A stretch of 861 nt of DNA from the sequence record AF039872.1. The stretch is one strand, 5' to 3'. The position numbers and the translations under genes are program-made. The notes under the pieces were generated by a model. It did no database searches, was not told where the DNA came from, and saw only the letters and a list, made by a program, of their open reading frames with translations. Of this stretch, positions 1 through 861 are shown piece after piece; positions within the stretch are counted from its first letter, which is position 1, and every line of letters begins with the position of its first letter. The DNA is from a phage.

Positions 1-33
1 CTTGCATGCCTGCAGTCGACTCTAGAGGATCCC
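1..33. other. Cloning-vector polylinker (pUC/M13mp18/19-type multiple cloning site); not biological insert sequence
   Basis: Contiguous restriction sites in canonical pUC order: SphI gcatgc 4-9, PstI ctgcag 10-15, SalI gtcgac 15-20, XbaI tctaga 21-26, BamHI ggatcc 27-32. The string matches the pUC19 HindIII-to-BamHI polylinker from memory except for one missing G (canonical CTGCAGGTCGAC, here ctgcagtcgac). The insert appears to begin at the GATC within or just after the BamHI site (about nt 28-34), consistent with Sau3AI/BamHI-compatible cloning. Confidence 0.85.
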
Positions 34-34
34 G

Positions 35-616
35 TTAGATGAGATTATCTTTATAAAGGATAACAGTTACGTGTGTGGCACAAACTCTCAAATTTCTGGC
101 CAATCTCGTGTTGCTACTGTTATTGATTCTCTTGAGAAGCGTTCTAAGATGCTTAACTTTAAAGAGAAATTCCTCGATAACGGAACCGTGATTGGTCTTA
201 TTCTTGAGACGGATGAAATCCTGAACAAGAAATTGCGTGAGCGTAAACAAGAAGAATTACAACTCGATTATAATCCTAGTACGGGTCAGTCCTCTGTCCT
301 GATTCTAGATGGTGGTATGAAAGCTAAACCGTACTCCCAAATATCCTCTTTTAAAGATCTAGACTTTAAGGAAGACATAGAAGGGTTTAATAAATCTATT
401 TGTCTAGCCTTTGGAGTTCCGCAAGTACTGCTTGATGGTGGTAATAATGCGAATATTCGACCAAACATCGAATTGTTCTATTATATGACTATCATTCCTA
501 TGCTGAACAAACTGACTAGTTCTCTTACTTTCTTTTTTGGTTATAAGATCACTCCTAATACTAAGGGAAGTCGCAGCATTAACACCAAGATAAAGAAGCA
601 GAGGCTAAACATTTAA
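35..616 (+). CDS. Phage portal protein, 5'-truncated fragment (HK97-family-like portal motif block); true N-terminus lies outside the clone
   Basis: The frame of the 71..616 ORF is actually open from nt 26, running through the vector junction with no stop, so the GTG at 71 is an ORF-caller artefact and not a real start. The translation contains ...VLILDGGMKAKPYSQISSFKDLDFKEDIEGFNKSICLAFGVPQVLLDGGNNANIRPNIELFYYMTIIPMLNKL..., which matches the conserved '...kDlDF...ia.AFGVP..LLg...N.sN.e...' block I recall from tailed-phage portal proteins. The stop is TAA at 614-616. Family assignment is from memory and needs an HMM search. Confidence 0.7.
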   Translation, partial: LDEIIFIKDNSYVCGTNSQISGQSRVATVIDSLEKRSKMLNFKEKFLDNGTVIGLILETDEILNKKLRERKQEELQLDYNPSTGQSSVLILDGGMKAKPYSQISSFKDLDFKEDIEGFNKSICLAFGVPQVLLDGGNNANIRPNIELFYYMTIIPMLNKLTSSLTFFFGYKITPNTKGSRSINTKIKKQRLNI

Positions 617-698
617 CCTCAATGGGTAATAATGGTATTATAACCGGTAACGAAGCTCGTTCAAAGCTGAACTGGAGCCATTAGATGATGACAAATGA
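583..698 (+). other. Probable frame-shifted continuation of the portal C-terminus (frame 2 at 583-684, then frame 3 at 669-698); read error or pseudogenisation
   Basis: The frame open over 583-684 translates to HQDKEAEAKHLTSMGNNGIITGNEARSKLNWSH*. The frame over 669-698 translates to ELEPLDDDK* with TGA at 696-698. Joined, '...GIITGNEARSKLELEPLDDDK*' resembles the portal C-terminal signature 'G.iT.NE.R...L.L.P..GGD' as I recall it. The AFGVP-to-NEAR spacing is about 80 aa, which is plausible for this family. Each frame switch is consistent with a single missing base: one between about 540 and 583 (a T6 homopolymer lies at 533-538) and one near 667-672. Confidence 0.45.
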
Positions 699-777
699 AT
701 AAGATTCGTATCCTGCAACGTCGCTGGGTCCGCAACAAGTGTATCCGGTCAAAGAAGTGGGAGACCTAAGGTTCACC

Positions 778-784
778 GAGGGAG
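778..784 (+). promoter_or_regulatory. Shine-Dalgarno-like ribosome-binding site (GAGGGAG) for the downstream ORF
   Basis: Purine-rich GAGGGAG at 778-784, with 6 nt between GGAG (781-784) and the ATG at 791. This spacing is typical of low-GC Gram-positive bacteria and their phages. Confidence 0.35.
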
Positions 785-790
785 ATTAGA

Positions 791-861
791 ATGATGATTA
801 AGTGGGCTAAGGACAATTTTGGTGAAAACTACAGAATCCAAAGCTCCCTGCAACGGTGGCG
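791..861 (+). CDS. Possible 5' end of the next gene downstream of portal (hypothetical protein, 3'-partial, runs off the window)
   Basis: ATG at 791 preceded by the SD-like site; open frame to the window end translating MMIKWAKDNFGENYRIQSSLQRW.... Only 23 codons are visible and this is the presumed low-quality 3' end of a read, so both product and frame are uncertain. By synteny in HK97-like head modules a prohead protease or scaffold gene often follows portal, but the visible residues do not let me confirm this. Confidence 0.3.
   Translation, partial: MMIKWAKDNFGENYRIQSSLQRW

What the first reader, a model, noticed from the sequence alone, without database searches (positions are those of the whole stretch)
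533..698. Portal C-terminus is split across three reading frames; two single-base indels would restore one ORF
The annotated ORF ends at TAA 614-616 with an atypical basic tail (SRSINTKIKKQRLNI). The expected portal C-terminal signature instead appears in another frame (583-684: ...GIITGNEARSKLNWSH*) and then a third (669-698: ELEPLDDDK*). Both switches go in the direction of one missing base each, the same error type seen in the vector polylinker. The likeliest explanation is read-quality decay beyond about 530 nt, including a T6 run at 533-538. The alternative is a genuinely frameshifted gene in a decaying prophage. Programmed frameshifting is not typical for portal genes, and I see no slippery-site and pseudoknot arrangement to support it.
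Basis: partly seen in the sequence, partly recalled or inferred. Interest (0 to 1): 0.5.

Follow-up and report, generated by a model that had tools for sequence, protein, structure and literature searches.

The report
Sequencing-read errors scramble T5 portal end
The broken reading frame is not biology: the window is a single-pass sequencing read of a cloned piece of phage T5, and the end of its portal gene only looks frameshifted because base-calling degrades from about base 565 onward.

Summary
The window is a clone read. Bases 1-33 are a pUC-type polylinker, which itself lacks one G. Bases 36-564 are 100% identical to the phage T5 portal gene (pb7, residues 152-327). From base 565 to the end, the window differs from T5 at 38 positions: 19 substitutions, 16 deleted bases and 3 inserted bases. 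The count per 50-nt bin rises steadily: 0 in every bin up to 535, then 1, 3, 3, 7, 7, 8, 9.

The repair it proposed is not right.
- The first switch is two inserted bases (G at 565, A at 587), with 7 codons (EVAALTP) in a third frame between them. It is not one missing base.
- The T6 run at 533-538 is correct.
- The gene does not end at 698. It runs to 787-789 through seven more indels, for 11 in the portal gene overall.

17 of 19 substitutions are alleles absent from 12 T5-like relatives, 15 of 19 hit a T, and 15 of 19 repeat the preceding base. These are marks of base-caller failure. All relatives keep one ungapped ORF, no E. coli genome holds the sequence, and no slippery site is in phase.

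The parts
1..33 (+). Cloning-vector polylinker (HindIII remnant, SphI, PstI, SalI, XbaI, BamHI, SmaI half). One G is missing between 15 and 16 (ctgcaGGtcgac reads ctgcagtcgac).
   Evidence: 33 window bases match 34 bases of the pUC-type MCS in engineered plasmids at 97.1%. The plasmid sequence was read directly.
34..35 (+). Vector-insert junction. It does not exactly fit vector GGATCCCC plus T5 GTAGATG, so 1-2 early-read miscalls are likely. A blunt insert in SmaI is inferred.
   Evidence: Window compared with the vector and with T5. T5 has no GATC at the junction, so this is not a Sau3AI/BamHI clone.
36..564 (+). Error-free part of the read: T5 portal gene pb7, residues 152-327, in window frame 2. 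It includes the correct T6 run at 533-538.
   Evidence: 529/529 identical to four T5 records. Pfam Phage_portal PF04860, E=6e-27.
565..567 (+). First error: GG in T5 is read as GGG (one inserted G). The portal frame moves from window frame 2 to frame 3.
566..586 (+). pb7 residues 329-335 (EVAALT/P) in window frame 3.
587..588 (+). Second error: CCAG in T5 is read as CCAAG (one inserted A). The frame moves from 3 to 1.
588..671 (+). pb7 residues 336-363 in window frame 1 (DKEAEAKHLTSMGNNGIITGNEARSKL), with three substitution miscalls at 622, 626 and 664.
614..616 (+). False stop (TAA) of the frame-2 ORF. In T5 these bases are out of frame, inside codons for HLT.
671..672 (+). Third indel: AACCTGG in T5 is read as AACTGG (one C missing). 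The frame moves from 1 to 3.
672..691 (+). pb7 residues 364-369 (LEPLDD) in window frame 3.
691..692 (+). Fourth indel: GATGAGCAG in T5 is read as GATGACAA (one G missing). The frame moves from 3 to 2 and creates the false TGA at 696-698.
692..789 (+). Rest of pb7 (residues 371-403, QMNKIRIPANVAGSATGVSGQEGGRPKGSTEGD) spread over frames 2, 1, 3, 1, 3, 2, 1 by seven more indels (at 710, 716, 751, 756, 767, 773 and 787). The true stop lies at 787-789 and reads TAG because one A of T5's TAA-G was dropped.
791..861 (+). Start of the next T5 gene, the head decoration protein pb10 (ATG at 791-793). It is also scrambled, with 8 indels and 8 substitutions in 71 bases.
   Evidence: T5 annotation; alignment.

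Best explanation
The window is a single-pass Sanger-type read from a plasmid or M13 clone of bacteriophage T5 DNA. It is primed in the vector and reads through the polylinker into the last 60% of the portal gene pb7, then on into the decoration gene pb10.

Base calling is perfect for about 530 insert bases and then degrades progressively. Peaks broaden, the T signal in particular is lost, and the caller either drops the base or calls the preceding peak twice. It also miscounts short runs (GG as GGG, A as AA, CC as C). Each miscounted base shifts the apparent reading frame, so the intact pb7 C-terminus appears chopped into pieces in all three frames, with spurious stop codons at 614-616, 682-684 and 696-698.

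Shown here: the identity to T5, the error gradient, that the errors are private to this read and base-biased, and the intact ORF in all relatives. Inferred: the sequencing chemistry and the peak-level mechanism.
For: - Vector polylinker occupies 1-33 and has one base missing relative to the known vector sequence.
- Window 36-564 is 529/529 identical to all four T5 records, and no other phage reaches 100%.
- All 38 differences to T5 lie at or beyond 565. Counts per 50-nt bin are 0 for ten bins, then 1, 3, 3, 7, 7, 8, 9.
- No phage among 468 matches the tail better than T5 does (88.8%).
- All listed relatives match 803 window bases to exactly 813 of their own, so only the read has indels.
- 12 relatives, from 88% to 99% identical to T5, align to T5 without a gap and keep one ORF to ...TEGD* or ...GDKE*.
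- 17 of 19 substitutions are alleles seen in none of the 12 relatives, and 16 of 19 lie at sites invariant among them.
- 15 of 19 substitutions are at T in T5, against 27% T content (binomial p=3.8e-6).
- 15 of 19 repeat the preceding called base, against 1/3 expected (p=6e-5).
- The apparent excess at third codon positions follows from T5 codons often ending in T: 44 of the 84 Ts in the tail are at position 3.
- The cryo-EM model of virion pb7 is one continuous chain over residues 11-377 of 403. It covers the positions of the first four frame switches, at residues 328, 335, 363 and 370 (PMC11313276).
Against: - No trace or quality values are available, so the error model rests on comparison with reference genomes rather than on the raw signal.
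- Two tail substitutions (706 C>T, 746 T>C) coincide with alleles found in some relatives and could in principle be real stock polymorphisms.
- The vector-insert junction at 33-36 is not exactly explained.
Confidence: 0.97

Rival explanations
1. The source is a genuine T5 variant or mosaic whose portal 3' end really differs from T5, with a recombination boundary near 565. Only some of the differences would then be read errors.
For: The change from 0% to about 12% divergence is abrupt, and 11 of 19 substitutions fall at third codon positions. Two alleles (at 706 and 746) occur in relatives.
Against: - No phage among 468 carries this tail, and T5 is still the best match.
- 17 of 19 alleles are private, and 16 of 19 sites are invariant in the 12 relatives.
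- The third-position excess is explained by the T bias.
- Divergence keeps rising towards the read end rather than levelling off.
- 19 indels in 297 bases would destroy two essential structural genes.
Confidence: 0.02
2. The clone itself carries real mutations, from a cloning or PCR artefact or from selection against a toxic insert in E. coli.
For: Frame-breaking changes in a cloned phage structural gene are conceivable.
Against: - Mutations would not cluster solely in the last 297 bases of the read with a steady rise.
- They would not be T-specific or repeat the preceding base.
- The insert lacks the pb7 N-terminus (it starts at residue 152), so there is little expression to select against.
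Confidence: 0.008
3. The gene is genuinely frameshifted and sits in a decaying prophage.
For: There are multiple frame breaks and premature stops.
Against: - No match in 20,395 records from 5,426 complete E. coli genomes.
- The sequence is joined to a cloning polylinker.
- It is 100% identical to T5, a Tequintavirus, over 529 bases. T5 is strictly lytic (established knowledge, not tested here).
- Decay would not spare the first 529 bases completely.
Confidence: 0.001
4. Programmed ribosomal frameshifting joins the pieces during translation.
For: None beyond the split itself. A T6 run lies upstream at 533-538.
Against: - T5 and 12 relatives encode the same C-terminus in one frame.
- The only X XXY YYZ heptamer near the region (TTTTTTG, 533-539) is out of phase with the portal frame and lies 26 bases upstream of the first switch.
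- At least 11 shifts in both directions would be needed.
Confidence: 0.001

Closest known systems
Bacteriophage T5 portal protein pb7 (T5.152 / T5p148, YP_006980.1), HK97-family portal, Pfam PF04860
   Same: Window 36-564 is identical at the DNA level. Once the indels are removed, the tail encodes the same residues 328-403. The gene order, portal then decoration protein pb10, is also the same.
   Different: The only differences are the 38 read-end discrepancies. None is supported by any other genome.
End-of-read base-calling errors in single-pass Sanger clone reads (GSS/EST-type records with untrimmed vector)
   Same: Untrimmed polylinker at the 5' end, a clean stretch of about 530 bases, then a rising rate of run-length miscounts and dropped or duplicated peaks.
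   Different: The strong T-specific bias is more marked than a generic decay model would predict. It points to loss of one dye or lane signal. Which chemistry was used cannot be determined from the sequence.
Programmed frameshifting in phage structural genes (for example the tail assembly chaperone G/GT of lambda-like phages)
   Same: Only the superficial appearance of one protein continuing in another frame.
   Different: There is no in-phase slippery site, no conservation of the split, and the gene class is different. The reference gene is a single ORF.

Membership tests
Phage portal protein (Pfam PF04860, HK97-type); specifically T5 pb7 | Significant match to the Phage_portal profile above Pfam's gathering score | tested here: met
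   The window frame-2 product scores 95.1 bits against a cut-off of 39.1 (E=6e-27). Full T5 pb7 scores 172.2 bits.
Phage portal protein (Pfam PF04860, HK97-type); specifically T5 pb7 | Orthology to T5 pb7 by near-identity and by gene neighbourhood (portal, decoration protein, protease, major head protein) | tested here: met
   529/529 identity. T5 annotation of the region. The window spans the pb7/pb10 junction.
Sequencing artefact (read-end decay of a clone read) | Vector sequence at the read start, showing that this is a raw clone read | tested here: met
   pUC-type MCS at 1-33.
Sequencing artefact (read-end decay of a clone read) | Discrepancies to the reference absent early and increasing with distance from the primer | tested here: met
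   0 in 529 bases, then 1, 3, 3, 7, 7, 8, 9 per bin.
Sequencing artefact (read-end decay of a clone read) | Discrepancies private to the read and unlike natural variation | tested here: met
   17 of 19 substitution alleles are absent from 12 relatives, and no relative has any indel. T bias p=3.8e-6. Repeat of the preceding base p=6e-5.
Sequencing artefact (read-end decay of a clone read) | Demonstrable miscall in sequence whose true form is known independently | tested here: met
   One G is missing in the PstI/SalI junction of the polylinker.
Sequencing artefact (read-end decay of a clone read) | Low quality values or unresolved peaks in the trace beyond about 565 | not testable with these tools
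   No trace or quality file is available.
Programmed ribosomal frameshift | Slippery sequence in phase at the shift point | tested here: not met
   No X XXY YYZ heptamer lies at 565, 587, 671 or 691. The T6-containing heptamer at 533-539 is out of phase.
Programmed ribosomal frameshift | Frame split conserved in homologous genes | tested here: not met
   T5 and 12 relatives have a single ORF.
Programmed ribosomal frameshift | Downstream stimulatory RNA structure | not tested
   The other two features fail, so this test would not change the conclusion.
Pseudogene in a decaying prophage | Location in a bacterial chromosome | tested here: not met
   No hit in 5,426 complete E. coli genomes. The sequence is flanked by a cloning vector.

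The most novel reading that the evidence does not exclude
A few of the tail differences could be real polymorphisms of the particular T5 laboratory stock that was cloned, hidden among the read errors. The candidates are 706 C>T and 746 T>C, which coincide with alleles in other T5-like phages. Both are synonymous third-position changes in pb7.
Probability: 0.1. Interest if true: 0.02.

Novelty: not a real feature. Interest (0 to 1): 0.03.

Why it matters
It matters only for data hygiene. The record should be trimmed of vector (1-35) and of its low-quality tail (from about 565 on), and no ORF, stop codon or protein variant should be annotated from 565-861. The 181-aa ORF ending at 614-616 and its basic tail are artefacts. 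The real protein is the well-characterised 403-residue T5 portal pb7, whose structure in the virion has been solved.

Tried and rejected
- **Mosaic or divergent tail.** The substitutions looked enriched at third codon positions, so I searched the tail alone and compared each difference with 12 relatives. The alleles are private to this read, and the codon-position pattern follows from a T-specific error bias. Rejected.
- **Prophage origin.** A search of all complete E. coli genomes found nothing. Rejected.
- **Programmed frameshift.** The heptamer scan found nothing in phase, and the reference ORFs are continuous. Rejected.
- **Sau3AI/BamHI cloning junction.** T5 has no GATC at the junction. 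A blunt SmaI junction fits better, but still needs 1-2 miscalls. Left unresolved.
- **Not run.** The large protein-database searches, structure prediction and RNA tools, because near-identity to an annotated, structurally solved T5 gene made them unnecessary.

Full report
**What the window is.** Bases 1-33 (cttgcatgcctgcagtcgactctagaggatccc) match the pUC-type multiple cloning site present in engineered plasmids. The match is 33 window bases against 34 plasmid bases. Reading one such plasmid shows aagcttgcatgcctgcaGGtcgactctagaggatccccgggtacc, so the window lacks one G between its positions 15 and 16. From base 36 on, the window is phage T5. A megablast of 30-861 finds 439 T5-like phage records with T5 best at 96.4%, and in every listed record 803 window bases pair with 813 record bases. 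The T5 annotation places the match over the 3' 60% of the portal gene (T5.152 / pb7, 403 aa) and the start of the next gene, the head decoration protein pb10. The frame-2 product of the window matches Pfam Phage_portal (PF04860) at E=6e-27.

**Checking the observation.**
- The frame-2 ORF 71-616 ends ...SRSINTKIKKQRLNI at TAA 614-616.
- Frame 1 carries ...GIITGNEARSKLNWSH*, ending at 682-684.
- Frame 3 carries ELEPLDDDK*, ending at 696-698.

The T5 protein reads ...ITPNTKEVAALTPDKEAEAKHLTSLVNNGIITGNEARSELNLEPLDDEQMNKIRIPANVAGSATGVSGQEGGRPKGSTEGD*. The alternative-frame pieces are therefore true pb7 sequence, and the basic tail of the frame-2 ORF is not.

**The actual anatomy.** Base-by-base alignment to T5 shows window 36-564 identical at 529 of 529 positions. 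Only the four T5 records reach 100%. All 38 differences lie from 565 on: 19 substitutions, 16 deleted bases and 3 inserted bases. Tracking the T5 portal frame through the window gives the following path.

| Window span | Window frame | Content or event at the end of the span |
|---|---|---|
| 36-564 | 2 | clean pb7; then an extra G in GGG 565-567 |
| 566-586 | 3 | EVAALT; then an extra A at 587/588 |
| 588-671 | 1 | DKEAEAKHLTSMGNNGIITGNEARSKL; then a missing C in AACCTGG |
| 672-691 | 3 | LEPLDD; then a missing G in GAGCAG |
| 692-710 | 2 | QMNKIR |
| 711-716 | 1 | |
| 717-750 | 3 | NVAGSATSVSG |
| 752-756 | 1 | |
| 757-767 | 3 | GRP |
| 768-773 | 2 | |
| 774-787 | 1 | TEGD; true stop at 787-789 |

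- The first switch is two insertions, not one deletion. The 7-codon frame-3 piece between them was missed.
- The T6 run at 533-538 is correct.
- The first error is at 565.
- The TGA at 696-698 is spurious.
- Two repairs do not restore the ORF.

The pb10 start (ATG 791-793) is scrambled in the same way.

**Error or biology?** Five independent lines point to error.
1. *Gradient.* Differences per 50-nt bin are 0 for ten bins, then 1, 3, 3, 7, 7, 8, 9. This is the shape of read decay, not of a recombination block or of mutation.
2. *Private to this read.* No phage among 468 matches the tail better than T5 does (88.8%). Twelve relatives, from 88% to 99% identical to T5, align to T5 with no gap at all and keep one ORF. 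17 of 19 substitution alleles are absent from all twelve, and 16 of the 19 sites are invariant among them, although 48 of 310 tail sites are naturally polymorphic.
3. *Base bias.* 15 of 19 substitutions are at a T in T5, against 27% T content (p=3.8e-6). As the alignment places them, 7 of the 16 deletions are also Ts. This explains the excess of third-position changes that at first suggested real divergence, because 44 of the 84 Ts in the T5 tail are at codon position 3.
4. *Neighbour copying.* 15 of 19 miscalled bases repeat the preceding called base (p=6e-5 against 1/3). Most indels miscount short runs, for example GG to GGG, CC to C and AA to A. This is what a base caller does with broad, merging peaks and one weak channel.
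5. *Independent control.* The read also has an error inside the vector polylinker, whose true sequence is known.

**Rivals.**
- *Decaying prophage.* There is no match in 5,426 complete E. coli genomes, the insert is joined to a vector, and the first 529 bases are pristine.
- *Programmed frameshift.* T5 and all relatives encode the C-terminus in one frame. No X XXY YYZ heptamer lies at any switch, and the TTTTTTG at 533-539 is out of phase.
- *Structural evidence.* The cryo-EM structure of T5 virions models pb7 as one chain over residues 11-377 of 403, with the crown domain at 337-377 (PMC11313276). The switches at residues 328, 335, 363 and 370 fall within the modelled chain, so the protein made by the phage is the continuous one.
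- *Mutated clone or divergent stock.* This cannot be excluded for individual bases (706 and 746 match natural alleles), but it cannot explain the gradient, the bias or the indels.

**Comparison with what is known, and verdict.** The gene is T5 pb7, an HK97-family portal, already sequenced in several T5 genomes that are identical across this region and solved structurally. The 'feature' is a read-end artefact of an untrimmed single-pass clone read. Novelty: not a real feature. Interest is very low. The only practical consequence is that bases 1-35 and roughly 565-861 should be trimmed, and that nothing should be annotated from the tail.

Noticed in passing
window 15-16: The polylinker reads ctgcagtcgac where the vector has ctgcaGGtcgac, so one G is dropped in known vector sequence at the very start of the read. 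The read is therefore imperfect at both ends.
   Followed up: yes
window 31-38: The vector-insert junction GGATCCCGTTAGATG fits neither SmaI-cut vector (GGATCCCC) plus T5 (GTAGATG) exactly, nor a BamHI/Sau3AI join, because T5 has no GATC here. A blunt insert in SmaI with 1-2 miscalls is the simplest reading.
   Followed up: partly
window 622-858: The read errors are strongly T-specific (15 of 19 substitutions are at T), and 15 of 19 repeat the preceding base. This suggests loss of one dye or lane signal rather than uniform decay. The chemistry cannot be identified from the sequence.
   Followed up: yes
window 706 and 746: Two tail substitutions (C>T and T>C, both synonymous third positions of pb7) coincide with alleles present in 8 and 1 of the 12 relatives. 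This is probably coincidence, but real stock polymorphism is not excluded.
   Followed up: partly
window 787-793; L001 2256-2263; L007-L014 about 905-914: T5 and its closest relatives end the portal at ...TEGD* with a 2-nt spacer before the pb10 ATG. More distant relatives (AKFV33, T5_ev219, phC11, Gostya9, Kenya-K16 and the Epseptimavirus phages) extend it by two residues (...GDKE*) and overlap the decoration gene start by 4 nt. This is natural, in-frame variation at the gene junction.
   Followed up: partly
phage collection hits OR847562.1, OR845102.1, MG969412.1: OR847562.1, a 2.4-kb record named 'Listeria phage LM 4-11-1', carries this T5-like portal at 90.7% identity. Other records among the matches are also named for Campylobacter. 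These are probably mislabelled or contaminated deposits. MG969412.1 (148.7 kb) holds the region twice, which suggests an assembly duplication.
   Followed up: no
L001 2261-2755 and homologues: The gene after the portal is annotated inconsistently across records: Hoc-like head decoration, tail fiber protein, major tail subunit, neck whiskers protein and tail protein. In T5 it is the experimentally characterised capsid decoration protein pb10.
   Followed up: no
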